From NCBI GenBank assembly GCA_050302075.1, contig JBNLAH010000001.1, positions 320,342 to 384,341 on the forward strand: a DNA stretch of 64,000 bases. The letters run 5' to 3'. This document shows positions 18,671-31,832 of the stretch, one piece after another. This DNA comes from Parachlamydiales bacterium (GTDB taxonomy: Bacteria > Chlamydiota > Chlamydiia > Chlamydiales > SM23-39). The position numbers were made by a program, and so were the translations under genes. The notes beneath the pieces are model-generated. The model had not been told where the DNA came from. It made no database searches and saw only the letters and a program-made list of their open reading frames with translations. The stretch's first letter is position 1; each line of letters begins with the position of its first letter.

Positions 18671-18737
18671 TAAATTAAAACTTAAATTTGATGCTGAATC
18701 AAGTTTAATGTTACTTATCTTTCACGGTAAATGAGGT

Positions 18738-18790
18738 TTAAAGATATGGGGCAACCAGGACTTGAACCCGGGACCAACGGATTATGAGTC
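18738..18790. repeat. att direct repeat copy 3 (tRNA 3' half duplication)
   Basis: Matches 31750-31802 with 1 mismatch over 53 bp. Confidence 0.95.
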
Positions 18791-18981
18791 TCATTCATTA
18801 GAAAACTCTGAATAAAAGAGAGTTAACCAGAATAAGCTTTTCCTCTCAAGATTTTTAGAAACCAGTTCAGGATGATTCTCAAATAGCCTCTTTTTTTCAG
18901 GTCATTTGCGGAAAATTTGCGTAAATTTAATTTGACATACAAGGCTTAAGGTGAAAAAATCTCTTGGTTTTAGCGGGGCCA

Positions 18982-20049
18982 ATGATGACAAAAGCAATCT
19001 TAAGTTCAGAATCCTTAATCAACTCTCCTAAGGGGTATAAGGAATTCCTCGAAGACATCAAGAAAAGGATTCGAGAAGCGCAAGGGAAAGCGAGTCTATC
19101 CGTTAACAAAGAGCTTGTTCTGCTCTATTGGTCTATTGGTAAATCTATTCTTGAAAAACAGACAAATGAGGGCTGGGGAGCAAAGATTATTGATCGGATG
19201 GCAAACGATTTAGCCTCAGGGTTCCCCGGGATATCCGGCTTTTCAGTTCGTAACCTAAAGTACATGAGGAAATTTGCTGAAGTTCATACCGATCCTGAAT
19301 TTGTGCAGACACTGCTTGCACAATTGCCTTGGTGGCATAACATACTCTTATTAGAGAAGTTAAAAGACCCTGAGATAAGGAAATGGTATGTTTATGAAAT
19401 TCTGCATAATGGTTGGAGTGGAAGAGCTTTAGAAGAAGCGATTCGCTCCAATCTTCATGAGAGGAAGGGAAGGGCTATTACAAACTTTGAAGAAAGGCTA
19501 CCCGCTCCTCATTCGCGATTAGCAAACGAAATCTTGAAAAGTCCCTACAACTTTGGGTTTCTGACTTTAGAAGATGATTATATAGAGCAAGAGCTTGAAA
19601 GGGGCTTAGTCGATAACTTGGAAAAGCTTATTTTAGAGCTTGGGCAGGGGTTTGCCTTCATTGGTAGACAATACCATCTGGAAATTGCGGGTGATGACTA
19701 TTATTTGGACATGCTCTTTTATCATATCAAACTGCGCTGCTTTTGTGTTGTAGAGCTAAAGACAACCGATTTCAAGCCAGAATATGCAGGTAAACTCAAC
19801 TTTTATCTCGCAGCCGTTGATAGGCAGCTAAAACATCCAACGGATAATCCATCAATTGGTATGATCATTTGCCGTACAAAAAATGATCTAAAAGTAGAGT
19901 ACTCCCTGGAGCGTAGCACTATGCCTATGGGAGTATCGGAATATGCTGTGAGCATCATGGATGCTTTGCCTAAAGAACTAAAAGGAACCTTACCTACTGC
20001 AGCTGAGATTGAAGAGAAATTAACGCGACATAGGAAGGAAGATAAATAA
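18982..20049 (+). CDS. YhcG/DUF1016 family PDDEXK nuclease-domain protein
   Basis: LYWSIG, GWGAKII, GFSVRNLKYMRKFA, LELGQGFAFIGRQ, DMLFYH..LRCFCVVELK, PSIG; ATG at 18982 preferred over TTG at 18964. Confidence 0.92.
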   Translation: MMTKAILSSESLINSPKGYKEFLEDIKKRIREAQGKASLSVNKELVLLYWSIGKSILEKQTNEGWGAKIIDRMANDLASGFPGISGFSVRNLKYMRKFAEVHTDPEFVQTLLAQLPWWHNILLLEKLKDPEIRKWYVYEILHNGWSGRALEEAIRSNLHERKGRAITNFEERLPAPHSRLANEILKSPYNFGFLTLEDDYIEQELERGLVDNLEKLILELGQGFAFIGRQYHLEIAGDDYYLDMLFYHIKLRCFCVVELKTTDFKPEYAGKLNFYLAAVDRQLKHPTDNPSIGMIICRTKNDLKVEYSLERSTMPMGVSEYAVSIMDALPKELKGTLPTAAEIEEKLTRHRKEDK

Positions 20050-20076
20050 ATGAAAAATAGATAAAAGGAGATAATT

Positions 20077-20919
20077 ATGGGATGTTTTTTCAAAGGGTTT
20101 GTAACTTCGCTTGCGGTTATATCTTCTCTTTTGGCGTCAGAAGTAAAAGATTCCTGGAAAGGAGATGAATATGCTAAAAATTCAGAATCTCAAAAGTCTT
20201 CAGCTGAAGACTTCATCGGAGCACTGCATTTAGATGATTTTTCTATTGTCCTTGACGTAGGATGCGGGGATGGCAAAATTACTGCTGCAATTGCAAACTT
20301 GGTCCCCCATGGCGAAGTAGTTGGAGTAGATATTTCTCCGTCTATGATTCGCTTTGCAAATCAGGCATTTTCAAATGTAGCTAATCTTTCATTCGATATA
20401 CAAGATGCAGCTCAGATAAACTATACGGAAAAGTTTAATCTGATCACTTCATTTACTGTTATGCAATGGGTCTTGCCACAAGCTCAAGCTTTGAATGCAA
20501 TGCATAAGGCCTTGAAACCAGGAGGAACTCTCTGCATTCAAATGCCCACAGGGCTTCCAGAAGCAATGCAAGGGGCTTTAAGTAAGTTGATTTTTTCGGA
20601 TCAATGGGCTAAGTATTTTGTAGGTTTTTCTGCTCCTTGGAAGTTTTATCAACCTGAAGAATACAAAGAGCTACTTTTGAATGCTAATTTTGTGCCAAGT
20701 AGAATTGAAACTTCTACAAAACATGAAAAATTTCCTTCTAGAGAAGTTTTTCAAGGATTTTTGAGACAGTGGTTTCCTTATCTAAGGCCTCTACCAGAAG
20801 ACTTAAAAGATATTTTTCTTACTAAGCTAGTTGACGAGTACCTTAAGGCTTTGCCAGTAGATCAAGCTGGCAGGGTAAGTTTCATTGTTACTCGCCTTGA
20901 AGTTGAGGCAAAAAAATAG
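20077..20919 (+). CDS. class I SAM-dependent methyltransferase (trans-aconitate methyltransferase-like)
   Basis: VLDVGCGDG, GVDISPSMI, LKPGG; signal-like N-terminus. Confidence 0.88.
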   Translation: MGCFFKGFVTSLAVISSLLASEVKDSWKGDEYAKNSESQKSSAEDFIGALHLDDFSIVLDVGCGDGKITAAIANLVPHGEVVGVDISPSMIRFANQAFSNVANLSFDIQDAAQINYTEKFNLITSFTVMQWVLPQAQALNAMHKALKPGGTLCIQMPTGLPEAMQGALSKLIFSDQWAKYFVGFSAPWKFYQPEEYKELLLNANFVPSRIETSTKHEKFPSREVFQGFLRQWFPYLRPLPEDLKDIFLTKLVDEYLKALPVDQAGRVSFIVTRLEVEAKK

Positions 20920-20929
20920 ACGAGTCTTT

Positions 20930-20957
20930 AATCCGCTTAAGAAATCTTAGGCGGATT
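20930..20957. terminator. probable terminator hairpin
   Basis: AATCCGCTTAAGA-AA-TCTTAGGCGGATT after the methyltransferase. Confidence 0.65.
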
Positions 20958-21031
20958 GATTGTTTAACATTTTCATAAAGAAGATTTGGCAAAAACCGCT
21001 CTGGTTATAAACTTTTTCAGAAGAGAAGTCA

Positions 21032-21250
21032 CTATTTCAGGTTGTTAATATGACCTGCCTTCTCAATGATGTGAATCTCAGAGCTGGCAATACAAGAAGA
21101 CATTTCTTCTGATTCTCTGGGTGGACGAGGGATATCATCTTCCCTTACAAGAATTAGTGTAGGTTGTTCGACCTTAGAAAGCTTGTCTAGTTTGCAGTCT
21201 CTAGAAAAAATTGCCCTTCCCAAGGAAACAATTCCTGGAATATTTTCCTC
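21032..21250 (-). pseudogene. alpha/beta hydrolase C-terminal fragment
   Basis: QPTLILVREDDIPRPP...IIEKAGHINNL (acid and His region) fused in frame to an integrase fragment. Confidence 0.65.
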
Positions 21251-22038
21251 TTTGATTTCAGCTAATGCTAGAGCTTTCTGCCAAGCTTTTTTAATATCAA
21301 TTTTTCCAAATGCTGTCCTGCTTGCAAAAACCAGTTCTTTATGCTTTTGTCTAACTTCATAGAGCTTTTTAAGTTCTTCAATAATATCAGGGACCAAATA
21401 GATGCTTCTTGGAGAGTTATTTTTAGTGTTTGGTAAAAAGGCTTAGGATACAGATAAGTATTCTAGCTTTTCTTACAAGCTGCTATGAGTTTAACAGCTT
21501 CTTCGTGTGATAGCACTCTGTCTCTTCCAGAACTTTCTTTAAGCTTTTTGAAATTAAGGCAGGGATTATCTGTTATCCAAGCAAGCTGACGACAAGCAAA
21601 AGTTAATATTGATGAAAGGCTAGCAAAGTACCTATTAACTGTTGCATTAGTCCTTTTTTTGTTCTGGTTAGTAGGAGTATCTAGTAGGAATTTTCTTTCT
21701 TTGCTTAAAAGATCAGTATTGAGGTGCGATAGAGAGTATTTCCCAAGTCGGAATTTCCAATAGGTTAGATGTCTAAGAGTATCCTTTGATGATTTATGGT
21801 GCTCTAACATGCCGTCATCAAGAAAACGATCGACAAGTTCAATAAAGGTTTTTTGATTTTTATATTGATCGAACTTGAACTGACCTAACTTGATTTTACG
21901 TTCTGTATCATTTGACCAGTCTTCAGCTTCTTGTTTTCTATCAAATGTTTTAGTTATTGCAGGAAAGCCTTTAATTCGAATGGCAGCTCGCCATTTAGAG
22001 CTTTTCCCATTTCTTCTTCTTTTATAAATTGATGCCAT
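21251..22038 (-). pseudogene. tyrosine integrase pseudogene (element B)
   Basis: N-terminal part 21463..22038 resembles the intact integrase at 30401; after a stop and deletion it resumes as TKNNSPRSIYLVPD...LVFAS...IDIKKAW; catalytic Arg box, HxxR and Tyr are missing. Confidence 0.85.
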
Positions 22039-22182
22039 ACAAACCTCTTAAAAAAATGGTTGGTTGGCATTAGTTAAAGTTGTTTTTCATTGCACCATAT
22101 TTACATCAAAAGTAATAAAAATTACTTGAATGATGAATATCAATCAAACATTTTAAAGCCTAATCAGTGCAATTGGAATGAT

Positions 22183-22235
22183 TTAAAGATGTGGGGCAAC
22201 CAGGACTTGAACCCGGGACCAACGGATTATGAGTC
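22183..22235. repeat. att direct repeat copy 2 (tRNA 3' half duplication)
   Basis: Identical to 31750-31802: TTAAAGATGTGGGGCAACCAGGACTTGAACCCGGGACCAACGGATTATGAGTC. Confidence 0.97.
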
Positions 22236-22352
22236 TTACCTATTTTGGCTACTAATGCCTATGATCCATAGTTAACAATCATATAATTAGCTTTTTAGGT
22301 TAAAAAAAATACTAATACTAATTGTTTGTTGCTGATCATTTTTACTAATTTC

Positions 22353-22372
22353 TGTGCCACTAGTGTGCCACT
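22353..22372. repeat. paired TGTGCCACT repeat, putative integrase arm-type site (left end)
   Basis: TGTGCC at 22353 and 22364, 11-bp period. Confidence 0.65.
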
Positions 22373-22552
22373 TTTTTTTTCTAAGTAACCGTAAATTTAG
22401 TGAAAGTTTCAGAATAAATTTAGATATTTTCCACTAAGTCATTTTTCCTAAAAAAATATTTTGACAGTTTCCAAGAAATGAGAATAATATTTTTATGTAA
22501 CAGACAGTCAGCAACTGTTTTAAGTGTAAAAAATATTATTTAGAGAATCGAG

Positions 22553-22747
22553 ATGAAGTTTTGTAGTTTAAACTATTTTTTAAAGAAAAGAGAAGATACA
22601 TGGCCAACCGAAAGAGCAATGCGTTGGATTATTTTTAATCGAGAATTTAATGGAGCAAAACGCTTTTTGAGAAAAGTTTCAGGAAGATGGTTTATTGATG
22701 AGGTGGAATTCGAAAATTGGATAAATGAGGACGGAAATGATAAGTAA
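22553..22747 (+). CDS. small putative DNA-binding/excisionase-like protein
   Basis: 64 aa; RKVSGRWFIDEVEFENWI resembles the wing of Xis/MerR-like HTH proteins; first gene of the replication operon. Confidence 0.55.
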   Translation: MKFCSLNYFLKKREDTWPTERAMRWIIFNREFNGAKRFLRKVSGRWFIDEVEFENWINEDGNDK

Positions 22748-22958
22748 TGAAAACAATAAAATTGAAAAGCTTTTGAATATTGCTAGCAGATTCTCAAATA
22801 GTTCAAATTCTGATTTACAAAGTTTAGGACGTTACATTGAAGATGAAATTCGAACTTTAGATGAATATGAAGAGTCTGATGAAAAAATACGTTTCTTGGA
22901 TGAAATTAGATATCGTGTAACTAAAAAATATAAAGAAATTACTGGAGATGGATTATGA
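22725..22958 (+). CDS. hypothetical protein
   Basis: 77 aa, overlapping both neighbours (translational coupling). Confidence 0.55.
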   Translation: MRTEMISNENNKIEKLLNIASRFSNSSNSDLQSLGRYIEDEIRTLDEYEESDEKIRFLDEIRYRVTKKYKEITGDGL

Positions 22959-24814
22959 TTGGAATAAGAGAAGGGGAGAAGGGCCTCCCCACAACTCATT
23001 TTAATAAGTCACAAGAATCATATTCTAACAAAATAAATTCAGACAAGTTAATAAACGACAAAATTAATAGGTATAGTTCTGAAAGTAAGGTAGTTGGAAA
23101 TCGAAATAATGCTTTGAATACAATTGCATTTGAAGTCGGAAAGCTTTTAAGTAAATCTTCCTATAGTGAAGGTGTAGTTAAAGCTAAAATATCTGAATTA
23201 GCACAAATAGGAGGGTTGTCTCAAAATGAAATTAATTCAACTCTAGAATCTGGATTTAAAGCAGGCATTGAAGCTTCTTTAAACGCAGCTTTTAACACTT
23301 CAAAAGAAATTGCTTATGAATATAAAGATCGATTTGGAAACTATCTTTATGAGCTGGTTTGTATAAAAACCGAGCAAAATAAAAAACAGTTTTTTAGAAG
23401 AAAACTTCCAAATGGAGAATATGTTTTTTCCTTACAAAAAGGATGGTATGAAAGGAAAACCTTAGATCAAAAGTGCCAATGGAATCTTTCAGAAAATCAA
23501 GTCTGGGATGTTTTAGATACTACACGCATATGGTTGGATACGGTTAACCGAGTTCCTTATAGATTACCAGACATATTAAGTTCTAAAGTAATACTCATAT
23601 TGGAAGGAGAAAAAGATGTTGAAACAGCTTTTAGTTTAGGGTTTTATGCAACCACAGCTAAATCTGTTCCTAAAAATCAATTAAAACAGGCTTTTTCCTA
23701 TATAAAAGATAAAAAGTTCATTTATATACCAGATTGCGATTCCGCAGGTGCTAAAGAGTTAGAAAGAGTTCAAAATGAAATTGAAGATTTTGTTGATGAA
23801 TTTAGCTCTCTTAATTTGCCTCGCTTAGAACATTCAGAAGACCTCACTGACTGGATAGAAAAAAGAAACGGATCAAAAGAAGAGCTAGAAAATCTAATAA
23901 GTAAGCAGACAAATAAAGGCAAAAAGCAATTGCATCCAATTGGTCTTGGACAGCTCTTAAAAATGTCATTACCAAAGCATAGTATTATATTATCACCTTG
24001 GTTAAGGGAAAAATCACTATGTATGATCTATGCCTGGAGGGGAATAGGGAAAACACTTTTTTCCTTGAATTTAGGTTATGCTATTGCATCTGGTAATTCA
24101 TTCTTAGAGTGGGAAGCTACAATTAAAAAAAGAGTGCTTTATATTGATGGAGAGATGCCTACAGTTTCTATGCAGGAAAGACTTGCAAGTATTGTAAAAA
24201 GATATAAAAAAACTCTTTTATCAGATGAGTATTTTAAAATCATTTCAGCAGATTTAGAAGAAGACGGCATACCTTATTTGGATAGTAAAATAGGTCAAGA
24301 ATGCTTGGAGCAATATATAGAGAATTTTGACGTAATTATCATAGATAATATTAGCTGTCTTACAACTCAGCCAGAAAATGAATCTAATTCATGGGTTATT
24401 ATGCAAGAGTGGGTTTTAAAATTAAGACGAATGGGAAAAACAGTAATTTTAATACATCATTCTAACAAAAAAGGTGGAGCAAGAGGAACATCTAAGAGAG
24501 AAGATGTATTAGATGTTGTTATAAATTTAAAAAGACCTAAAGACTATGACGATTCTCAGGGTTCTATTTTTGAAATACATTTTGAAAAAGCTAGATTTTT
24601 TGACCCGAGAGAAGTTTCTCCAATTGAAGTGACTCTTTCAGAGGATAATAACATCTTAGACTGGAAATTCAAAAAAGTTGAAGATTCGCTACTTTTAAAA
24701 ATTGAAGAGTTTATAAAGATGGGCATGTTAGACAAAGAAATTTGGGAAGAACTTGGAATTAGCAAGGCTACTTTTTATAGATATAAGAAAAAGCTCAAAA
24801 ATCCTTTAGATTAA
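22955..24814 (+). CDS. primase-helicase (PriCT-like + TOPRIM + AAA_25/RepA-type helicase + C-terminal HTH)
   Basis: RNNALN..AF...GLSQNEI..T; ILEGEKD and PDCD; Walker A AWRGIGKT, Walker B IIIDN, LIHHSNK, ARGTS; ELGISKATFYRY. Confidence 0.88.
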   Translation: MIGIREGEKGLPTTHFNKSQESYSNKINSDKLINDKINRYSSESKVVGNRNNALNTIAFEVGKLLSKSSYSEGVVKAKISELAQIGGLSQNEINSTLESGFKAGIEASLNAAFNTSKEIAYEYKDRFGNYLYELVCIKTEQNKKQFFRRKLPNGEYVFSLQKGWYERKTLDQKCQWNLSENQVWDVLDTTRIWLDTVNRVPYRLPDILSSKVILILEGEKDVETAFSLGFYATTAKSVPKNQLKQAFSYIKDKKFIYIPDCDSAGAKELERVQNEIEDFVDEFSSLNLPRLEHSEDLTDWIEKRNGSKEELENLISKQTNKGKKQLHPIGLGQLLKMSLPKHSIILSPWLREKSLCMIYAWRGIGKTLFSLNLGYAIASGNSFLEWEATIKKRVLYIDGEMPTVSMQERLASIVKRYKKTLLSDEYFKIISADLEEDGIPYLDSKIGQECLEQYIENFDVIIIDNISCLTTQPENESNSWVIMQEWVLKLRRMGKTVILIHHSNKKGGARGTSKREDVLDVVINLKRPKDYDDSQGSIFEIHFEKARFFDPREVSPIEVTLSEDNNILDWKFKKVEDSLLLKIEEFIKMGMLDKEIWEELGISKATFYRYKKKLKNPLD

Positions 24815-24815
24815 A

Positions 24816-25010
24816 TGAGTCTCAAAAATCATTTCCTTAGGAGGTGAGACTATGAGACTTTTAGATTTATTGAGACCTTAAAATGATACCCTTTTTAATA
24901 CTAAAGTTATTTTGTATAGAGGGGTTTTTAAAAATAATGAAACTATCTATTGAGACAAATATGAGACTAACTTCATTACTACCTGAGACATTATGCAAAA
25001 ATAGTGAGAC
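24816..25010. repeat. TGAGAC iteron-like cluster, putative replication origin
   Basis: TGAGAC at 24845, 24853, 24871, 24951, 24962, 24984, 25005, plus inverted GTCTCA at 24819. Confidence 0.75.
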
Positions 25011-25020
25011 CCTTAATTGC

Positions 25021-26892
25021 ATGAACGATGACTATTCAAAGTTCATAAAAAAATCAGCTGATAACGTGCTTTCTAAGTCTGAAATACATATCTCTAATAA
25101 ATCAGAGCTTGGGTTAAACCAAATTGAATTTATTGAAAATGTCGATGAAGCGAGATTAATTTTAAAAAAGATACAAAACCTTAACTCACATGCTATTGGT
25201 TTTGATATTGAGACTAACAAGAAAATTGAATTCCAAGAGCATCCAAAGGCTGGTTTATGTCCCTATTTATCAAATATTAGGCTCATGCAGTTTTATTGCG
25301 GAGATGGCACAGCTTATGTATTTGATATTACAAAAATTAAAAATATAGATATTTTCACTCCCGTATTTGATTTATGCCTTGTAGCTCATAATGCAATTTT
25401 TGAACTAAAGCATTTGATTCATAATGGAATTCGCCCTAAAAGAATGGGCTGCACGTTACTTCAAAGGCATGCCTTAACTGGAGAAGTTTTTAGTCTCAAA
25501 GATCTGACCAAATTGCTACTGCAAGTAGATTTATCCAAAGAAGAACAAACCTCTAATTGGGGAAGTTCAATATTAACTGACTCACAAATTGAATATGCTG
25601 CAAAAGATGCTTATTTTGTCTTTAAAATTAATCAAATTCAGCAAAATCAGCTAAAAAAACAACCTGAGGTATTTCAATGTTATAAACGTATGAGAGAAGC
25701 CCAATATGCTGTAGCTGAATTAGAATTAGCTGGGATGCCATTTAATTTAAAAAAGCACACTGAGCTTATTCATAAACTTGAAAAAGAAAAACTAGAGCTT
25801 CTACAAAAGTTAAGCACTATTATGCCTGGAGTAGATCCTCAAAGCTCCAAGCAAATATCTGGGTGGATACAGTCCAGATTTGATCAAGAAATAGTAAAAA
25901 AATGGCCTTTAAATAGTAGTAGTCGCTGGCTAAGAATTGATGAAGGTACTCTTAAGTTGTTCTTAGACTTAGAATTTGTTCCAATCTTGCTAAAGTTTAA
26001 AACTGTATCAAAAGCTTTGAACTCATTTGGTGAAACATTATCCAATTTAGTTCATCCAATAACAAAAAGAATTCATGCTAGATACTTTATGGCTGGGACT
26101 AAAACAGGAAGGTTTTCTTGCAGAGAACCTAATTTACAGCAAATTCCAAGGTCATCAGAATTTAGATCTATATTTCAAGCATCAGATGGTAATTGTTTTA
26201 TTATTTGTGATTATAGTCAGATTGAGTTAAGGGTATGTGCTTTGCTATCTCAAGACAAGCTAATGATAGAAGCTTATTCTAATGGCGAAGACCTTCATCA
26301 AAAGACAGCCTCACTTATTCTTAAGAAACCCATAGACCAGATAACTAAAAATGATCGGCAGTTAGCAAAAGCTATCAATTTTGGGTTAATTTACGGAATG
26401 GGCGCTAAAGGGTTGTCTAGCTATGCTAAAAACAATTATGGAGTACCAATGTCACTGGAACAAGCCGACAATTACAGGAGAGTATTTTTTTCTCAATACT
26501 CCGGATTAGCTGATTGGCATAAGATGATGTTATCTCTATCAAAAGGGTTGGGGATTGTTAAGACCAGAGGCGGCAGAGTTAGAAATTTCAATTTAGAAGG
26601 TAAGCAAAATGTTTATACAGAGGCATTAAATTCTCCAGTTCAAGGGACTGCGGCAGAAATAACATTAGAAGCTTTGATTCTCATTGAAAAACGAATTAAG
26701 GGACTACCGATAAAAATTGTTCATTTAGTTCATGATGAAATTATCTTGGAGTCACCGAATGAAATAGCGTCAAAAGTATTAGATATATTAGAAAAATCTA
26801 TGGAAGAAGCTTTTTTTAAAATGTTTCCTGAAGCTATATCACATAAAGAGGTTGTTATAGGACAAATAGCAAATTTATGGAGTAAGGATTAA
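25021..26892 (+). CDS. family A DNA polymerase with 3'-5' exonuclease and no 5'-3' exonuclease
   Basis: Exo FDIET, HNAIFE, YAAKD; pol TGRFS..PNLQQIPR, DYSQIELR, RQLAKAINFGLIYG, VHDEI. The frame opens at 24883; ATG 25021, just after the repeats, is the likelier start. Confidence 0.93.
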   Translation: MNDDYSKFIKKSADNVLSKSEIHISNKSELGLNQIEFIENVDEARLILKKIQNLNSHAIGFDIETNKKIEFQEHPKAGLCPYLSNIRLMQFYCGDGTAYVFDITKIKNIDIFTPVFDLCLVAHNAIFELKHLIHNGIRPKRMGCTLLQRHALTGEVFSLKDLTKLLLQVDLSKEEQTSNWGSSILTDSQIEYAAKDAYFVFKINQIQQNQLKKQPEVFQCYKRMREAQYAVAELELAGMPFNLKKHTELIHKLEKEKLELLQKLSTIMPGVDPQSSKQISGWIQSRFDQEIVKKWPLNSSSRWLRIDEGTLKLFLDLEFVPILLKFKTVSKALNSFGETLSNLVHPITKRIHARYFMAGTKTGRFSCREPNLQQIPRSSEFRSIFQASDGNCFIICDYSQIELRVCALLSQDKLMIEAYSNGEDLHQKTASLILKKPIDQITKNDRQLAKAINFGLIYGMGAKGLSSYAKNNYGVPMSLEQADNYRRVFFSQYSGLADWHKMMLSLSKGLGIVKTRGGRVRNFNLEGKQNVYTEALNSPVQGTAAEITLEALILIEKRIKGLPIKIVHLVHDEIILESPNEIASKVLDILEKSMEEAFFKMFPEAISHKEVVIGQIANLWSKD

Positions 26893-26946
26893 GAAAATCA
26901 TTTAAAATGATTAATTATCATTTATTATAAAGTTAAAAACTTTTAG

Positions 26947-28680
26947 TTATTCTTTAGCTCCAACAGATATTAAAAGTTGCTTAATTTTCTCAATATCTCC
27001 GCCAAGGTAATCTCTAATCTTTCTTAAAGGTGTATATCCATCATTATTTTTGATATTTATATCACAATTGTTTTCTATTAAAATTTTTACACATTCATAA
27101 TATGTAATTACTTCATGTAAAAGAGATTCTCCATTTATATATTTATAATTGGGGTTAGCTCCATATTCCAATAGAAGTTTAAGCTTTTCTGAACTTCCTT
27201 TAAGAGGAAAGCTTTTAGCACATACCCATAAAGGGTAAGCTCCCTTGTAATCACTTTCAATTTTTACGCCTAGTTCAAGTAATGCTTTAATTCCATTTAC
27301 AGAACCTGGAATATCGCTATATACTGCATAATTTAATGGAGAGCTTACCCACCATAATGATCCTATATAAGCATCTTTAGCATTGTAGTTTAAATCAATA
27401 TTCCAATTTTTAAATAATCTTAAAACTTCAACAGAACCATATCTCGCAGCTATATGAATTGCTGTGCCTTCATATATATAATAGTATGGATTTGCCCTGT
27501 GTTTAAGTAGAGCTTCCGCCCCTTTCACATTATTAAATCTGGCAGCATATTGTAATGGTGAATTTGGGATCCATGCATCATTTTGATCTTTGCCCCAAAT
27601 TATTGGTTTAGGATTTACCTGCGCGCCCCTTTTAATTAAGAGGTTAATTAGGCTCTCATTTCCGAATGCTGCAGCAAAATCGAGGGCACTATCAGGATAA
27701 TCAAATGATGTATATGAAGATAAATCAGGAATTTTTCTAGATCTTGAATTAGGAGAAGCTCCATTATCTAAAAATAGCTCTACTGCTTTAAGATCATTTG
27801 CTCTTATAGCTGCATGCAAGGCAGGAATACCATACTCATTATTCCCATACTTAACTAACGCTTGAGACAACTCAGAATTTATTGATCCGTCTTTTTTAGC
27901 ACTGATTAAATTTGGCTTATTTGTAGATACCAATGTTGAAACAACAGGTAAAGTGCTTACACCAACAGTGCATAAAGCCGGAACATTTTTATTAAAAGCA
28001 ACACTCTCTTGTCGTTGAATTTTTTTTATTATTGCATCTATTTCCCATTTCTTTTGTAAGGCTTGTATTTGAGGAATAGTTTGGTTTACACGTATTGCCG
28101 TCATTAAAGCATGTCCTGCAAATTCAAGATAGTTACCTTCTTTAAGTTCTTTAATCGAAGAGTGACTTCCTAAGATAACCTGACAAGCTAGAGAAAGAAT
28201 TTGATACTCCAATCCACCATGAGTCATAGTTAGTAAATAGAAAATATTATTGGCAAGTTGAATTATCTCTTGAATAGCTTTGTCATTTTTGCCACTTACA
28301 ATTGCTTGAATAAGTCGATGTCCATTTAAAGTTAAATCATGTCCAGTTGTAATAAGCATTCCAATTGGATGTAAAAGAATAGTTCCAGCTATAGAAGATA
28401 TTGCCAAGGCGGTGTTTGCTATAGATTTACTGAGCTTATAAGCATCCGCTTCTTTAATGGCAGATATTAATTCAACAGAGCAAGAAAGAACTCTAGCCGC
28501 ACTTGTTCCAATTGCTAAAGTTTTTCCAAAGGGTTTGTATAAGCTAATAAAAGGAAGAGCAACTAAACCAACTCGCTGCATTTGATTTAGAACAGAGTTT
28601 TTATCTTCACACTCTGCTAAGTCGTTTTTATAATCTCTATGAAAATAATTAGGAGATTTTATATCTAAAACTTTACTCAT
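26947..28680 (-). CDS. ankyrin-repeat protein with hydrophobic N-terminal domain (putative effector)
   Basis: Repeats PALHAAIRAND, SALDFAAAFG, SPLQYAARFN, TAIHIAARYG, SPLNYAV, GANPN, GYTPL. Confidence 0.9.
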   Translation of the reverse strand: MSKVLDIKSPNYFHRDYKNDLAECEDKNSVLNQMQRVGLVALPFISLYKPFGKTLAIGTSAARVLSCSVELISAIKEADAYKLSKSIANTALAISSIAGTILLHPIGMLITTGHDLTLNGHRLIQAIVSGKNDKAIQEIIQLANNIFYLLTMTHGGLEYQILSLACQVILGSHSSIKELKEGNYLEFAGHALMTAIRVNQTIPQIQALQKKWEIDAIIKKIQRQESVAFNKNVPALCTVGVSTLPVVSTLVSTNKPNLISAKKDGSINSELSQALVKYGNNEYGIPALHAAIRANDLKAVELFLDNGASPNSRSRKIPDLSSYTSFDYPDSALDFAAAFGNESLINLLIKRGAQVNPKPIIWGKDQNDAWIPNSPLQYAARFNNVKGAEALLKHRANPYYYIYEGTAIHIAARYGSVEVLRLFKNWNIDLNYNAKDAYIGSLWWVSSPLNYAVYSDIPGSVNGIKALLELGVKIESDYKGAYPLWVCAKSFPLKGSSEKLKLLLEYGANPNYKYINGESLLHEVITYYECVKILIENNCDINIKNNDGYTPLRKIRDYLGGDIEKIKQLLISVGAKE

Positions 28681-28791
28681 AATATCAACTTATTAATAAA
28701 TTTAACGATATTAATTATATTTAATTATTATATCCACTTCAATTTAATTGATTTTTTTAAACAGCAATTGTAAACTAAAACTTTTAGTAGG

Positions 28792-29364
28792 GTGTGTTTT
28801 ATGGGTAAAGGTTATAAAAAAAATATTCAAAGCTACTGTAAGGGGCCAAAAATTAGTTTTGAGATTAAAGATAATAAATTTATTGATGCTAAGCTTGATG
28901 GCAAAAAGATCGATCTTTACAAAGATCACAAATCTGGAGAAATTTTTCTTAAAAGACTTTGCGAATTAACACAACAGAACGAGCGAGATTTAGCTTTCTT
29001 TTCATTAGAACATGCTCGCATGGCATTATGTAAAGATGAATCAGAAAAGCCTCGAACATTCATTTTAAATTCTCTTCAGCAGCTACAGCCAAAAGACTCT
29101 GTAGAGTTTTCATTAATTGAGCAGTTTTTAGTATTGCATGATCAAGGAATAAATAGGTTAGCTAGAGCTAATCACTCTGATAATATTAGCAACTCAAGCC
29201 TTCAAATAAACATGGCTATTAAACTTTTAAGACTATCTCAAGAAACACTTTCTACCTTGATGAAATATCGAAATAAGGGGCAACAGCAAGTGTTTGTAAC
29301 ACATGTAAATAAAGGCGGCAAAGCAATTGTAGGTAACGTAAGCGGGAATGGGGGGAAGGAATGA
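28792..29364 (+). CDS. hypothetical protein paired with HGGxSTG protein
   Basis: C-terminal KYRNKGQQQVFVTHVNKGGKAIVGNV; 4-nt overlap with the next gene. Confidence 0.7.
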   Translation: MCFMGKGYKKNIQSYCKGPKISFEIKDNKFIDAKLDGKKIDLYKDHKSGEIFLKRLCELTQQNERDLAFFSLEHARMALCKDESEKPRTFILNSLQQLQPKDSVEFSLIEQFLVLHDQGINRLARANHSDNISNSSLQINMAIKLLRLSQETLSTLMKYRNKGQQQVFVTHVNKGGKAIVGNVSGNGGKE

Positions 29365-29624
29365 AAAATGAAGTAGAACCTCTTGTCCTCTGTGGGGCGA
29401 AGAGCAAAAGGACTGGTTTATCTTGTAGACAACCATCTATGAAAAATGGGCGATGTAGATTGCATGGGGGAAAATCTACAGGGCCTAAAACTCTAGAAGG
29501 TCTACTTAGAATTAAGAAATCAAAAACTAAGCATTCCTATTACTCAAAAGAAGCTATTCAAGAAAGAAAAAATATTCGCAATCTTATAAATAAGTCTAAA
29601 TTACACGTTGAGAAATGTTTATAA
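29361..29624 (+). CDS. HGGxSTG domain protein
   Basis: CGAKSKRTGLSC...NGRCRLHGGKSTGPKT. Confidence 0.88.
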   Translation: MKNEVEPLVLCGAKSKRTGLSCRQPSMKNGRCRLHGGKSTGPKTLEGLLRIKKSKTKHSYYSKEAIQERKNIRNLINKSKLHVEKCL

Positions 29625-30420
29625 AAACAGGCATGGTTTCTAAAAGAACTTTAGGAGTAATTTTTGTGTAGGTCTTAAGTTTTCTGCAAGCTCTATCAAA
29701 GTAAGAAATTAAGTGATTTCTTTTAATATAATCTCCATGACTTGTTTGAAAGACTAGTTCATTATCTTTATAACCTTTTCTAGTCTTAAGATTTATTAAA
29801 TTATCAATTATATGCCTTGGATACTTTATCAAATGCTTTTGAAAATTAATGCAGCTCATATTATTGCTAACTTGGTGCCATTTAAGATTTAGAACCTCAT
29901 CTAGTGTTGGAGCTCCAAAGTATAAAACTTTTGCTAATAGAGACTCTCTTTCTGGCAATAATAAACTAAATTCAACAAAAAGTTCATAATTTAACTTTCT
30001 AAAAGCGCACTGCTGCTTATCTGGATCGTAAGGTAGTTGAAATATTCCTAGTGTTTTTTCATGCAAAAAAGAAAAAAAACTGATGATATTAGCAACAATT
30101 TTTTCTTGAATAGAACGGTCTAATTTTGAATTAGTTCTTATTTCTTCTATGATGAGATGAAAACCACCTGATCTCAGTTCTCCTATAGTTTTTAGATATC
30201 CGAATTTATTAATAAAATTGATAAGAGTTTCGCTCATTAGATCAAAATCATTTGTTTTTGTTTTTGTTTCATTACTCCATAAAGTTAAAATTGGAAGTAT
30301 ATCTAGTTCATATAGTTTGTTTTCAAACTTGCCTCTAGATTCATAAAGATCTTGGGAAAGTTTATTAAAAAGTTTCATTTGCGATGGAGTATCTTTCATA
30401 TCATCCGAAAATTTTTTCAT
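29596..30420 (-). CDS. degenerate tyrosine-recombinase-like protein (chlamydial plasmid pGP7/pGP8-like)
   Basis: SFFSFLHEKTLG, RESLLAKVLYFGA..LDEVLNLKW, LVFQTSHG, KITPKVL; catalytic R, HxxR and Y absent. Confidence 0.65.
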   Translation of the reverse strand: MKKFSDDMKDTPSQMKLFNKLSQDLYESRGKFENKLYELDILPILTLWSNETKTKTNDFDLMSETLINFINKFGYLKTIGELRSGGFHLIIEEIRTNSKLDRSIQEKIVANIISFFSFLHEKTLGIFQLPYDPDKQQCAFRKLNYELFVEFSLLLPERESLLAKVLYFGAPTLDEVLNLKWHQVSNNMSCINFQKHLIKYPRHIIDNLINLKTRKGYKDNELVFQTSHGDYIKRNHLISYFDRACRKLKTYTKITPKVLLETMPVFINISQRVI

Positions 30421-31459
30421 TCATACTTCTTAAAACTGTTGAAGTGTGTGACTCACTTAAGTGAGCATATTTTTTAGACATTTGTATGCTCTTATGGCCT
30501 AAAATTTCTGCAATTTCAGTCAGTGAGGCTCCATTCATAGCTAAGTAACTAGCGCAGGAATGCCTTAAATCATGCCAACGGAAATCTTCAATATTTGCAT
30601 TTTTAATGGCGGTTTCCCATGCGGACCTAAGATCTAAAGGTTTTTTATTATTTTTACTAGGAAATACTAATGTTGAAGTTAAAGGTCTGTTTCTTTCATG
30701 TTTTTTTAACATTGTAAGAGCTAAGTGTGTTAATGGAACTGATCTAGTTTCTCCATTTTTTGTTTTATAAAGAACAATTCTACAATTTTTTAAATCTACA
30801 TTAGACCATGTTAAGTTCATTAGCTCGCTTTTTCTTATTCCTGTACTCAAAGCAATGACGACTGCTAGATAAAGATAAGAATTTTTGCTTTTTTTACACT
30901 CTATTAATAAAGCTTCTCTCTCTATATCGCTTAAATATCTTGATCTGCCTTTTGGTTCTTTAGGTTTTGTAATCTTTTGAACAGGGTTATCCTCAATCCA
31001 TTGATATTCTTTGACCGCTATACTTAATACATGAGATAGAGCAGCTAAGTATCTAACTACGGTTGATGGTGACTTTTTAGTACCTTTAGGTGTAATCTCT
31101 TGGCTCAGCTTATCTTTATATTCTGAAATTAAGGCAGGAGTTATATCAGCTAAAAGATATTTTCCTATTTTTTGTTTCCACCAGGCCAATTGATATCTTT
31201 TATCTTTAGCATTATTGGGATAATTAGGTAAAAAATCAGCAGAATATCTTTCAATTAGATCATTTAAAGTGTGTTTTTTTGCCTCTGAAGTTTTAAAATG
31301 ACGCCCTTCCCTTATGGCTGCTTCGGTCTGCTGCGCCCATCTTTTCGCGTCATGTCTTTTTTCAAAAGTAGCTGTTTGAGCTGGATATCCTTTTATTCTT
31401 ACCTGAACTCTGTAAGTTTTTTTTCCGTTTTTAGTAAGTCTCTTTTGTATATTGGCCAT
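30401..31459 (-). CDS. tyrosine integrase (element A), intact
   Basis: TGIRKSEL (R), TKNG (K), HDLRH, LGH, KKYAH (Y). Confidence 0.95.
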   Translation of the reverse strand: MANIQKRLTKNGKKTYRVQVRIKGYPAQTATFEKRHDAKRWAQQTEAAIREGRHFKTSEAKKHTLNDLIERYSADFLPNYPNNAKDKRYQLAWWKQKIGKYLLADITPALISEYKDKLSQEITPKGTKKSPSTVVRYLAALSHVLSIAVKEYQWIEDNPVQKITKPKEPKGRSRYLSDIEREALLIECKKSKNSYLYLAVVIALSTGIRKSELMNLTWSNVDLKNCRIVLYKTKNGETRSVPLTHLALTMLKKHERNRPLTSTLVFPSKNNKKPLDLRSAWETAIKNANIEDFRWHDLRHSCASYLAMNGASLTEIAEILGHKSIQMSKKYAHLSESHTSTVLRSMNEKIFG

Positions 31460-31588
31460 AAGTATTCACAAATAAATATAATATACAAAAATATGCGAAA
31501 ATTTGCAAACTCCGGATTTTAAATCAGATGGTTTTTTTATTTTTTGTCACTAGTAGTTAAGAGGTTATTACATGTAAAAAATGTTAAT

Positions 31589-31684
31589 GGCACATTTAAG
31601 GCACACAAAAGTTGCTTTTTTTGCAAATTTTATAGAATTTTTGCGTTAATGAAAGTTTCTGACTAAGTGTGCCGTTTGTGTGCC
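31589..31684. repeat. paired TGTGCC repeats, putative arm-type sites (right end)
   Basis: GGCACA at 31589 and 31600; TGTGCC at 31668 and 31679; both pairs have an 11-bp period. Confidence 0.65.
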
Positions 31685-31758
31685 AAATCACAAAAAGAAT
31701 GTAGGTGGAAGTTAGGAGTTCTGATTATAAATAACTGAAATTTAAAAGATTAAAGATG

Positions 31759-31832
<74 letters not shown>

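What the first reader, a model, noticed from the sequence alone, without database searches (positions are those of the whole stretch)
22955..26892. Primase-helicase-polymerase order and polymerase type echo the apicoplast PREX replisome
Seen: the polymerase lacks a 5'-3' exonuclease and has LSKEEQTSNW..LTDSQIEYAAKD, GRFSCREPNLQQIPR, AKAINFGLIYGM..L.SYAKNNYGVPMSLEQ, TEALNSPVQGT and a terminal WSKD. From memory these segments closely parallel the Plasmodium apicoplast polymerase and the Aquificae-like PolA group rather than canonical Pol I. PREX is a primase-helicase-polymerase polyprotein in the same order. Inference: a mobile, unfused PREX-like module in an intracellular bacterium could bear on the origin of PREX. 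Caveat: the PREX helicase is Twinkle/T7-gp4-like, whereas this one looks AAA_25/RepA-like.
Basis: partly seen in the sequence, partly recalled or inferred. Interest (0 to 1): 0.8.

Follow-up and report, generated by a model that had tools for sequence, protein, structure and literature searches.

The report
Mobile replication module with apicoplast-type polymerase
A chlamydial genome carries a 9.5-kb island, inserted at a tRNA gene, with its own primase-helicase and a DNA polymerase from the same broad group as the malaria-parasite plastid polymerase; this arrangement is already known in outline and does not point to the origin of that plastid enzyme.

Summary
ORF 22955-24814 encodes a Toprim primase + AAA_25 helicase + HTH protein. 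ORF 24883-26892 encodes a 3'-5' exonuclease + family-A polymerase with no 5'-3' exonuclease. The polymerase matches apicoplast PREX polymerase structures (E 1e-69) far better than Klenow (1e-45). It shares group-specific indels with PREX and Aquificae enzymes, and it separates from canonical Pol I, including the host's own, with full support.

Both genes lie on a ~9.5-kb island (22237-31748). The island is bounded by direct repeats of the tRNA-Met 3' end, carries tyrosine integrase genes, and sits in a Chlamydiota genome.

The link to PREX origin is weak. In the trees the polymerase falls in a clade of mobile-element enzymes separate from the clade holding PREX. A PREX + chlamydial grouping is rejected (AU p 5e-11), but PREX as sister to the whole clade is not (p 0.28). 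The primase-helicase is only a distant cousin of the PREX/T7 gp4 type. This polymerase group pairs or fuses with many unrelated primase-helicases, so the gene order is generic.

Verdict: a new member of a known kind, namely a mobile-element replicase of the Aquificae-like PolA supergroup. Interest is low to moderate.

The parts
18737..18791 (.). Outermost direct copy of the 3' part of tRNA-Met. It is the left border of a second, decayed island (B) lying in tandem.
   Evidence: Three-copy, 55-nt direct-repeat family, 95-100% identical.
18792..22181 (.). Island B (~3.4 kb): YhcG/DUF1016 nuclease (18964-20049), SAM methyltransferase (20077-20919) and remnants of a tyrosine integrase gene (21463-22038, possibly also 21032-21397, minus strand).
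   Evidence: Pfam and PHROGs hits. The 191-aa fragment is 38% identical to the intact integrase of island A. The run's contig of 3451 bp spans 18762-22212.
22182..22236 (.). Middle direct copy of the tRNA-Met 3' part; the left attachment-site repeat of island A.
   Evidence: The run's contigs break inside this repeat.
22553..22958 (+). Two small overlapping ORFs (64 aa, 22553-22747; 77 aa, 22725-22958) upstream of the primase-helicase. Function unknown; they may be regulators.
   Evidence: ORF list. No family match in Pfam, PHROGs or NCBIfam. A promoter-like site (11 of 12 matches) lies at 22461-22488, but the scan as a whole is at chance level.
22955..24814 (+). Bifunctional primase-helicase (P0001, 619 aa). 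Layout: helical N-terminal region without a zinc finger (1-115), primase core with Toprim (about 118-310), AAA_25 RecA-type helicase (338-507), and a C-terminal HTH (about 575-615).
   Evidence: Pfam AAA_25 1.2e-22 and PHROG primase/helicase families. Family alignment: Toprim E217/D260/D262 and Walker A G363-K366 are kept, while the CHC2 zinc-finger residues conserved in at least 90% of 44 rows are missing. AF2 model, pLDDT 76. Foldseek best matches are T7 gp4, Twinkle and RSF1010 RepA.
24883..26892 (+). Family-A DNA polymerase with 3'-5' exonuclease and no 5'-3' exonuclease (P0002, 669 aa). Exo domain 83-257, polymerase domain 293-643. Member of the Aquificae-like/apPOL supergroup.
   Evidence: Pfam. 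PDB phmmer: 8jrb 9e-80, PREX 1.4e-69, Klenow 1.2e-45. NCBIfam best hit 'bifunctional 3'-5' exonuclease/DNA polymerase', 442 bits, against Pol I at 282 bits. Trees. Catalytic motifs and group-specific indels.
26947..28680 (-). Ankyrin-repeat protein (577 aa). It is cargo inserted between the polymerase gene and its conserved downstream partners, and is absent from that position in related elements.
   Evidence: Pfam Ank families, 7e-31. In L090, L091 and L093 the 190-aa homologue follows the polymerase gene directly.
28792..29364 (+). Conserved 190-aa protein of unknown function (P0500) that travels with the polymerase gene.
   Evidence: Homologues directly downstream of the polymerase gene in L090, L091 and L093, 34-38% identity. 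No family in Pfam, PHROGs or NCBIfam.
29361..29624 (+). 87-aa HGGxSTG-domain protein (P0501), conserved partner of the 190-aa gene. It has a weak resemblance to small terminase subunits.
   Evidence: NCBIfam NF041373 1.1e-14, 53.8 bits against a cut-off of 29. PHROG terminase-small-subunit families at 1e-3 to 8e-3. Homologues of 43-47% identity in L090, L091 and L093.
29596..30420 (-). Second, divergent tyrosine-recombinase-like gene (274 aa), overlapping the start of the integrase gene.
   Evidence: PHROG integrase family at 7e-4. BLAST to L003 3369-4301, which carries Pfam Phage_integrase at 4e-14.
30401..31459 (-). Intact tyrosine integrase (352 aa) next to the tRNA gene.
   Evidence: Pfam Phage_integrase 6e-34 and PHROG integrase 2e-73. 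Homologues beside tRNA-Phe (L090) and tRNA-Ser (L003) in related elements.
31758..31832 (-). tRNA-Met (CAT) gene. Its 3' part (within 31749-31803) is the right attachment-site repeat of island A.
   Evidence: ARAGORN; direct-repeat family.

Best explanation
The two genes are the replication module of a compact (~9.5 kb) integrative mobile element. The element is inserted into the 3' end of a tRNA-Met gene in the chromosome of a member of the Chlamydiota.

After excision by its tyrosine integrase (inferred), the circular element would be copied by its own proteins. The Toprim/AAA_25 protein would load at an origin, perhaps through its C-terminal HTH, unwind DNA as a RecA-type hexameric helicase, and lay down primers. 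The proofreading family-A polymerase would extend them (all inferred from homology).

The polymerase belongs to the Aquificae-like/apPOL ('Hot Spring') supergroup of PolA, in a sub-clade made up mostly of mobile-element and metagenomic enzymes. The module is mosaic. In sister elements the same polymerase and its two small downstream partner genes are combined with unrelated primase-helicases. The resemblance to PREX is therefore a shared polymerase supergroup plus a generic, repeatedly evolved primase-helicase/polymerase pairing. It is not a specific ancestry.
For: Mobility. tRNA-Met lies at 31758-31832. Three direct copies of its 3' 55 nt (95-100% identical) delimit two tandem islands. An intact integrase sits beside the tRNA. 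The run's contigs break inside the repeats, giving pieces of 3451 and 9573 bp (same data set as the likely source, so not independent).

Distribution. The polymerase was found in 7 of 300 genomes scored in the phylum, own genome included. Related elements lie beside tRNA-Phe and tRNA-Ser. The host keeps a canonical polA elsewhere.

Host. The window's RpoB is 77% identical to that of a 'Chlamydiales bacterium' MAG, against 49-51% (longest aligned pieces) for three genomes of other phyla; a fourth gave no match.

Polymerase type. PDB phmmer gives 8jrb 9e-80, six PREX sequences 1.4e-69 to 4e-68, and Klenow 1.2e-45. T7 gp5 is not matched at E 1e-3. Separation from seven or eight Pol I rows, the host's included, has support 100 in both trees. 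Group-specific indels are shared. Exo I/III and polymerase motifs A, B and C are intact; Exo II has Glu for Asp in all four rows of this clade aligned and in the consensus.

Primase-helicase. Domains, catalytic residues and fold are documented. hhalign to T7 gp4 gives probability 95%, E 1.8e-8, collinear over 357 columns.

Mosaic module. The order primase/helicase, polymerase, 190-aa gene, HGGxSTG gene is conserved in L090, L091 and L093. The upstream gene varies: NrS-1-type HBD + DUF3987 (L090, L092, L003), NrS-1 HBD + AAA_25 (L094), or zinc ribbon + Toprim fused to the polymerase (L093).
Against: No excised or circular form, and no raised copy number, was seen; depth over the island equals the flanks in the one run available, which is held only as contigs.

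No origin of replication was identified.

The primase lacks the zinc-binding domain that its relatives and T7 gp4 have, so de novo priming is uncertain.

The element has no conjugation or capsid genes, so its route of transfer is unknown.

The ankyrin gene inserted inside the module and the decayed tandem island could mean that the element is itself decaying.

No attachment repeats were found for the related elements in L090 and L003 with the settings used.
Confidence: 0.72

Rival explanations
1. The region is the decayed remnant of a tailed prophage. The replication genes survive by chance and no longer function as a unit.
For: In a genome of the same family (L092) the homologous polymerase gene lies two small genes upstream of a large terminase subunit gene (Terminase_6N 5e-14). 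The HGGxSTG protein weakly resembles small terminase subunits. Island B next door is clearly decayed, with a broken integrase. A foreign ankyrin gene interrupts the module.
Against: All ORFs of island A are intact, and the catalytic residues of both enzymes are kept. A similarly compact gene set (integrase, primase-helicase, polymerase, two small genes) without structural genes recurs next to different tRNAs in L090 and L003. That fits a compact element family better than independent decay.
Confidence: 0.15
2. The module is a close unfused relative of the ancestor of the apicoplast PREX polyprotein, so chlamydial mobile elements were the source of PREX.
For: It belongs to the same polymerase supergroup with shared indels. 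Toprim, a RecA-type helicase and exo/pol appear in the same order. The Babesia PREX helicase region scores better on Pfam AAA_25 (1.8e-25) than on DnaB_C (1.9e-6). An AU test does not reject PREX as sister to the whole 28-row clade that contains the window (p 0.277). The bacterial source of PREX is stated to be unresolved (PMC10877234, passages read).
Against: Both trees put PREX with cyanobacterial, Bacillota, Methanococcoides and Pyrinomonadaceae enzymes (support 98-99) and the window in another clade (support 100). PREX plus the six chlamydial rows as one clade is rejected (delta lnL 272, p-AU 5e-11; the group was named after the tree was seen, and the six rows are not monophyletic themselves). 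The PREX N-terminus matches T7 gp4 (phmmer 1e-21 and 2.5e-11; hhalign E 2.5e-20). It matches none of the ~120 P0001-family proteins by phmmer, apart from one hit at 1e-4, and reaches only hhalign E 2.8e-6. At least eight other kinds of primase or helicase are found fused to this polymerase group, so the architecture evolved repeatedly.
Confidence: 0.04
3. The polymerase is a domesticated second Pol I used by the host for repair or translesion synthesis, and the neighbouring genes are incidental.
For: Extra PolA copies of unknown role exist in many bacteria ('Unknown role in prokaryotes' for cluster #8 in PMC10201439). Depth equals the chromosome.
Against: The gene lies inside att-bounded DNA with an integrase. 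It is sporadic in the phylum, 7 of 300 genomes. It is always next to, or fused with, a primase or helicase in the related loci examined: L003, L090, L091, L092, L093 and L094.
Confidence: 0.05

Closest known systems
Aquificae-like / 'Hot Spring 1' family-A polymerases (cluster #8, cd08639, of Czernecki et al. 2023, PMC10201439), including the apicoplast polymerase apPOL of PREX and the viral 3173 Pol group
   Same: Two-domain exo+pol enzyme without a 5'-3' exonuclease. Much higher sequence similarity to PREX polymerase structures than to Klenow or Taq. Shared group-specific indels. Occurs as an extra copy beside a canonical polA, as described for non-thermophilic bacteria (PMC7689252, passages).
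   Different: It sits in a separate, well-supported sub-clade (28 of 63 rows) from the one holding PREX, cyanobacteria and Methanococcoides. Best identity to anything found is 45%. Exo II carries Glu instead of Asp. The host is a mesophilic intracellular-type bacterium (Chlamydiota), a phylum not mentioned in PMC10201439 (0 occurrences of 'chlamydi').
PREX (plastid replication-repair enzyme) of Apicomplexa and relatives
   Same: Order Toprim primase, RecA-type helicase, 3'-5' exonuclease, PolA. Polymerase of the same supergroup.
   Different: Two separate genes rather than one polyprotein. Bacterial and mobile rather than nuclear-encoded and plastid-targeted. The primase-helicase belongs to a different family: PREX is close to T7 gp4, and this one is remote from both. 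No zinc finger is present.
Bacteriophage T7 gp4 / mitochondrial Twinkle bifunctional primase-helicases, and RSF1010 RepA helicase
   Same: Collinear primase core (N-subdomain + Toprim) followed by a RecA-fold hexameric-type helicase. Foldseek best hits are 5ikn and 7t8c (E 1.5e-13) over about 520 columns, and RepA with TM 0.74-0.76 for the helicase domain. hhalign probability to gp4 is 95%. As in T7, the primase-helicase gene precedes the polymerase gene.
   Different: No detectable match to any PDB chain by sequence alone. The zinc-binding domain is replaced by a helical region of low model confidence. There is an extra C-terminal HTH. The polymerase partner is not T7-like.
Self-replicating integrative elements that encode their own DNA polymerase (pipolins and casposons with PolB; staphylococcal SCC elements with CCPol-MP-Cch2)
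   Same: A small integrated element carrying a recombinase plus its own polymerase and helicase/primase functions. The names and properties of pipolins and casposons are recalled. CCPol is described in PMC10201439.
   Different: The polymerase here is a full-length proofreading PolA of a different subfamily. Integration is by a tyrosine integrase at a tRNA gene. No experimental evidence of replication exists.

Membership tests
Aquificae-like/apPOL PolA supergroup | 3'-5' exonuclease + polymerase domains, no 5'-3' exonuclease domain | tested here: met
   Pfam finds DNA_pol_A_exo1 and DNA_pol_A only.
Aquificae-like/apPOL PolA supergroup | Closer in sequence to apPOL/Aquificae-type enzymes than to canonical Pol I or T7-like polymerases | tested here: met
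   PDB phmmer: 8jrb 9e-80, PREX 1.4e-69, Klenow 1.2e-45, Taq 1e-41. T7 gp5 not matched at 1e-3. Support 100 for the split from Pol I rows, the host's included.
Aquificae-like/apPOL PolA supergroup | Group-specific signature indels around the Exo III region, after the PNLQxIPR motif and after motif B | tested here: met
   Ten-row alignment: shared with Babesia, Toxoplasma, Nostoc and Aquificaceae, absent from the host Pol I and Photorhabdus Pol I. That these are the published 'signature elements' is recalled; Schoenfeld 2013 could not be read.
Cluster #8 'Hot Spring 1' in the strict sense (cd08639) | Falls in the same cluster or clade as A. aeolicus, M. vulcani and P. falciparum enzymes | tested here: inconclusive
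   The window lies in a sister clade (support 100) distinct from the clade with Apicomplexa and Methanococcoides (support 98). Aquificota rows branch outside both. The CDD model and the CLANS clustering could not be run.
PREX | A single polyprotein joining primase, helicase, exonuclease and polymerase | tested here: not met
   Two ORFs separated by 68 nt.
PREX | T7 gp4/Twinkle-type primase-helicase | tested here: not met
   PREX against T7 gp4: hhalign E 2.5e-20. P0001 family against PREX: E 2.8e-6, probability 88%. phmmer with PREX N-termini finds gp4 but not P0001. Architecture and fold class are shared.
PREX | Nuclear-encoded and plastid-targeted, in Apicomplexa, chrompodellids and squirmids | tested here: not met
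   The gene lies in a bacterial chromosome; RpoB is 77% identical to that of a Chlamydiales MAG. PREX distribution is taken from PMC10877234.
gp4-like bifunctional Toprim primase-helicase | Toprim catalytic acidic residues and Walker A/B motifs of a RecA-type helicase | tested here: met
   E217, D260, D262, G363-K366 and D464 are invariant in the 44-row alignment and present in P0001.
gp4-like bifunctional Toprim primase-helicase | N-terminal zinc-binding domain for template recognition | tested here: not met
   C55, H58, C79 and C88 are conserved in at least 90% of 44 family rows but absent from P0001. The region is modelled as helices with pLDDT 32-68.
tRNA-integrating genomic island / integrative element | Tyrosine integrase next to a tRNA gene, and a direct repeat of the tRNA 3' end at the far border | tested here: met
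tRNA-integrating genomic island / integrative element | Excision to a circular form, or an empty site in related strains | not testable with these tools
   Only one run holds the sequence. It is held as contigs and may be the source.
Phage satellite (PICI-like) | Integrase + own replication initiator + packaging-redirecting gene, no capsid genes, dependence on a helper phage | tested here: inconclusive
   An integrase and a replication module are present, and there are no structural genes. The HGGxSTG protein has only weak small-terminase hits. No helper phage is known.

The most novel reading that the evidence does not exclude
The clade of mobile-element polymerases that contains this gene may be the true sister, or the source, of the PREX polymerase. 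This applies to the clade as a whole and not to its chlamydial members specifically. On this reading PREX's gp4-like primase-helicase was joined to the polymerase independently, one of many such fusions. Compact tRNA-integrating elements like this one would then be living examples of the vehicles that moved the polymerase between lineages, including into the ancestor of the apicoplast-bearing alveolates.
Probability: 0.1. Interest if true: 0.6.

Novelty: new member of a known kind. Interest (0 to 1): 0.3.

Why it matters
The role of Aquificae-like PolA genes in ordinary bacteria is listed as unknown (PMC10201439). Here, and in five related chlamydial loci, the gene sits in a defined mobile context with a primase-helicase. 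That supports the view that these enzymes are replicases of mobile elements and phages, not host repair enzymes.

The work also shows that the primase-helicase/polymerase pairing seen in PREX is one of many independent pairings and fusions in this polymerase group. This lowers the value of gene order as evidence for the origin of PREX. That origin remains unresolved (PMC10877234), and this window does not settle it.

Tried and rejected
1. T7-like or host-type polymerase: rejected.

2. Known isolated phages. tblastn of the polymerase found 4750 records, all under 60% identity. Only 3 covered at least 80% of the query, the best of them 26-27% identical. Aquificae Joseph's Coat Spring virus gave 28% identity. 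The primase-helicase found 24 records, the best at E 3e-12. There is no close phage relative.

3. Sequence search of the primase-helicase against PDB chains: 0 hits at E 0.01.

4. Earlier findings of this scan near this place: none.

5. Promoter and terminator scan of the island: counts at chance level, 38 against 44±7 and 4 against 4.4±2.2.

6. Attachment repeats for the related elements in L090 and L003: none found with seed 12 and minimum length 16.

7. Sequencing runs. One holder, held as contigs and possibly the source; no RNA holder listed. Laying it showed contig breaks at the repeats and even depth, with nothing on excision or expression.

8. Pfam at lenient thresholds on the N-terminal 125 residues of P0001, the 190-aa protein and the small ORFs: nothing credible.

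9. First IQ-TREE attempt on 79 rows: no answer from the script machine. It was replaced by FastTree on 79 rows and IQ-TREE quick, LG+G4, on 63 of the 79 rows. Before the trees, T7 gp5 and a mis-picked Geomonas ORF were dropped because they gave no phmmer envelope.

10. Schoenfeld et al. 2013 is not held, so its content is cited only through PMC7689252 and PMC10201439. Supplements of the papers were not opened; they may list chlamydial members.

11. Literature searches. 'HGGxSTG' gave 0 papers. Chlamydiae + genomic island + DNA polymerase + primase + integrase + tRNA gave 3 papers, none describing this element. Integrative/mobile element + family A DNA polymerase + primase-helicase + tRNA gave 12 papers, of which 10 were listed and none describes it.

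Full report
**What is there.** The finding's coordinates hold two same-strand ORFs: 22955-24814 (619 aa, P0001) and 24883-26892 (669 aa, P0002), 68 nt apart. Pfam gives P0002 a 3'-5' exonuclease domain (83-257, 7e-21) and a family-A polymerase domain (293-643, 7e-77), with no 5'-3' exonuclease. P0001 has an AAA_25 domain (338-507, 1e-22) and a weak C-terminal HTH. PHROGs matches P0001 to 'DNA primase/helicase' families over residues 193-549.

**Polymerase type.**
- Against all PDB sequences, P0002 matches 8jrb (deposited as 'DNA polymerase I') best, at 9e-80. Six distinct PREX/apicoplast polymerase sequences follow at 1.4e-69 to 4e-68. Klenow reaches 1.2e-45 and Taq about 1e-41.
- NCBIfam's best model is 'bifunctional 3'-5' exonuclease/DNA polymerase' (442 bits, below its equivalog cut-off), against 282 bits for Pol I.
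- The surrounding features are shared only with PREX, Nostoc and Aquificaceae enzymes. These are an SxW block before YAAxD, a 4-residue deletion after IPR, and a 6-residue insertion after motif B.
- Exo I, Exo III and polymerase motifs A, B and C are intact. Exo II has Glu where Pol I, PREX and Aquificae have Asp, a trait of the window's clade.
- T7 gp5 gives no phmmer match at 1e-3.
- The genome has a canonical polA on another contig.

**Trees.** From 79 rows cut to the exo+pol region I built a FastTree. From 63 of these rows I built an IQ-TREE quick tree under LG+G4 with SH-aLRT support. The first IQ-TREE attempt gave no answer. T7 gp5 and one mis-picked ORF had been dropped beforehand.
- Both trees split all non-canonical enzymes from the Pol I rows, the host's own included, with support 100.
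- Inside the non-canonical group, the apicomplexan PREX rows form a clade (100). It joins cyanobacterial, Bacillota, Methanococcoides and Pyrinomonadaceae enzymes with support 98-99.
- The window's enzyme lies in another clade (support 100; 28 of 63 rows). That clade holds the five related chlamydial genes, many metagenomic proteins, and ~1500-aa AEP-DnaB_C-PolA fusions.
- Aquificota rows branch outside both clades.
- An AU test does not reject PREX as sister to the whole 28-row clade (delta lnL 16.5, p 0.277).
- It strongly rejects PREX plus the six chlamydial rows as one clade (delta lnL 272, p 5e-11). That group was named after the tree was seen, and the six rows are not monophyletic on their own.
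- The nearest protein in 5.8 billion is only 45% identical.

**Primase-helicase.**
- Relatives of P0001 (233 at E 1e-5 or better among 8000 candidates scored) are mostly ~570-aa proteins, several named from Parachlamydia, Neptunochlamydia and Parachlamydiaceae.
- In a 44-row alignment P0001 keeps the Toprim residues (E217, D260, D262), the Walker A motif (G363-K366) and D464.
- P0001 lacks the CHC2 zinc-finger residues that at least 90% of rows have, and it carries a ~40-residue insertion in the primase core.
- The AF2 model (pLDDT 76; N-terminal 115 residues poorly modelled) matches T7 gp4 and human Twinkle best over about 520 columns (E 1.5e-13). Its helicase domain matches RSF1010 RepA with TM 0.74-0.76. 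No PDB chain is matched by sequence alone.
- Profile comparisons give PREX against T7 gp4 at E 2.5e-20 (probability 99.3%), the P0001 family against gp4 at 1.8e-8 (95%), and the P0001 family against PREX at 2.8e-6 (88%).
- phmmer with three PREX N-termini finds gp4 but not P0001. Among its ~120 relatives on file it finds only one, at 1e-4.
One nuance: the Babesia PREX helicase scores higher on Pfam AAA_25 (1.8e-25) than on DnaB_C (1.9e-6), so the Pfam label alone does not separate the two.

**Context.**
- A tRNA-Met gene lies at 31758-31832 on the minus strand. Its 3' 55 nt recur at 22182-22236 and 18737-18791 at 95-100% identity.
- These repeats define island A (22237-31748). In order, it contains two small ORFs, the primase-helicase, the polymerase, an ankyrin-repeat gene on the opposite strand, a 190-aa gene, an 87-aa HGGxSTG-domain gene (NF041373, 1e-14), a divergent recombinase-like gene and an intact tyrosine integrase.
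- They also define a decayed tandem island B (18792-22181) with a YhcG nuclease, a methyltransferase and integrase remnants.
- Contigs of the only run holding this DNA break inside the repeats, and depth over the island equals the flanks. That run may be the source, so it is not independent.
- The window's RpoB is 77% identical to that of a 'Chlamydiales bacterium' MAG. Three genomes of other phyla gave 49-51% over their longest aligned pieces, and a fourth gave no match. The host is therefore a member of the Chlamydiota.

**Relatives of the element.**
- The polymerase was found in 7 of 300 scored genomes of the phylum, own genome included. A P0001-like gene was found in 22 of 300. The two are adjacent only in the own genome and in G112.
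- In L090, L091 and L093 the polymerase gene is followed directly by homologues of the 190-aa and HGGxSTG genes.
- The upstream gene differs between loci. It is NrS-1-type HBD + DUF3987 in L090, L092 and L003, and NrS-1 HBD + AAA_25 in L094 (55% identical to the C-terminal half of P0001). In L093 a zinc ribbon + Toprim is fused to the polymerase.
- Integrases of related elements lie beside tRNA-Phe (L090) and tRNA-Ser (L003). L092 has a large terminase gene nearby, and L094 has a ParA gene.
- Among longer proteins, this polymerase group is found fused to several partners: PrimPol, D5_N, DUF927, DUF3987, Toprim_3-DUF3631, AEP-DnaB_C, Toprim-DnaB_C and Toprim-AAA_25.
- P0252 (1250 aa) has an N-terminus matching P0001-family proteins at 1e-33. 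It is thus a fused counterpart of the window's gene pair.
- T7 (gene 4 then gene 5) and an Aquificae virus (DUF927 helicase then PolA) show the same gene order.

**Interpretation.** The best reading (about 0.7) is a compact integrative element whose replication module combines a zinc-finger-less Toprim/AAA_25 primase-helicase with a proofreading PolA of the Aquificae-like/apPOL supergroup.
- Shown: gene content, borders, family placement and the mosaic nature of the module.
- Inferred: excision, origin recognition through the HTH, priming without the zinc finger, and coupled synthesis.
- Rivals: a prophage remnant (0.15), a domesticated host repair polymerase (0.05), and a specific PREX ancestor (0.04).

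**Comparison with the literature.** Passages read in PMC7689252 report that 3173-polA-like genes occur in diverse non-thermophilic bacteria as transient extra polA copies, and that viral forms are fused to helicase/primase regions. PMC10201439 defines cluster #8 'Hot Spring 1', gives its role in prokaryotes as unknown, notes AEP fusions, and does not mention Chlamydiae. PMC10877234 states that PREX came from an unresolved bacterial source. Schoenfeld 2013 itself could not be read, and supplements were not opened. Searches for a description of this element type found none.

**Verdict.** This is a new member of a known kind, with a clear mobile context that is useful for annotation. The specific link to the origin of PREX is not supported, although a sister relation at the level of the whole mobile-element clade cannot be excluded.

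Noticed in passing
window 18737-22236: A second, decayed island lies in tandem at the same tRNA-Met site. It carries a YhcG/DUF1016 PD-(D/E)XK nuclease, a SAM methyltransferase and a broken integrase gene, and is bounded by its own copy of the att repeat.
   Followed up: partly
window 26947-28680 (-): A 577-aa ankyrin-repeat protein is inserted between the polymerase gene and its conserved downstream partners. It is absent from that position in related elements and looks like cargo of the kind often seen as host-interaction proteins in intracellular bacteria.
   Followed up: no
window 28792-29624 (+); L090 7518-8381, L093 4048-4994: A 190-aa protein with no family match and an 87-aa HGGxSTG-domain protein travel with this polymerase in several chlamydial loci. 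The small one weakly resembles small terminase subunits, which raises the possibility of satellite-like packaging. The term HGGxSTG appears in no paper in the searchable library.
   Followed up: partly
proteins P0283, P0284 (~1280 aa), P0252 (1250 aa), P0267 group (~1500 aa): Metagenomic single-chain proteins join a primase, a helicase and this PolA group: Toprim_2-DnaB_C-exo-PolA, Toprim-AAA_25-exo-PolA and AEP-DnaB_C-exo-PolA. P0283 and P0252 fall in the clade that is sister to PREX (support 99 for their grouping with Methanococcoides). Their source organisms are unknown.
   Followed up: partly
L092 8-1405 (genome G276, same family as the window's genome): A large terminase subunit gene lies two small genes downstream of the homologous polymerase gene. 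This hints at tailed prophages in this chlamydial family.
   Followed up: no
L090 248-16434 vs L091 1-16187: Two genomes placed in different family codes share 16.2 kb at 97.6% identity. The shared stretch includes the element and ends inside the 3' part of tRNA-Phe, after which the flanks differ. This suggests either a larger shared island or a rearrangement at the att site.
   Followed up: partly
window 22955-23300 (P0001 residues 1-115): The CHC2 zinc finger typical of this primase-helicase family is replaced by a helical region with no family match and low model confidence. Whether the protein can still prime is open.
   Followed up: partly
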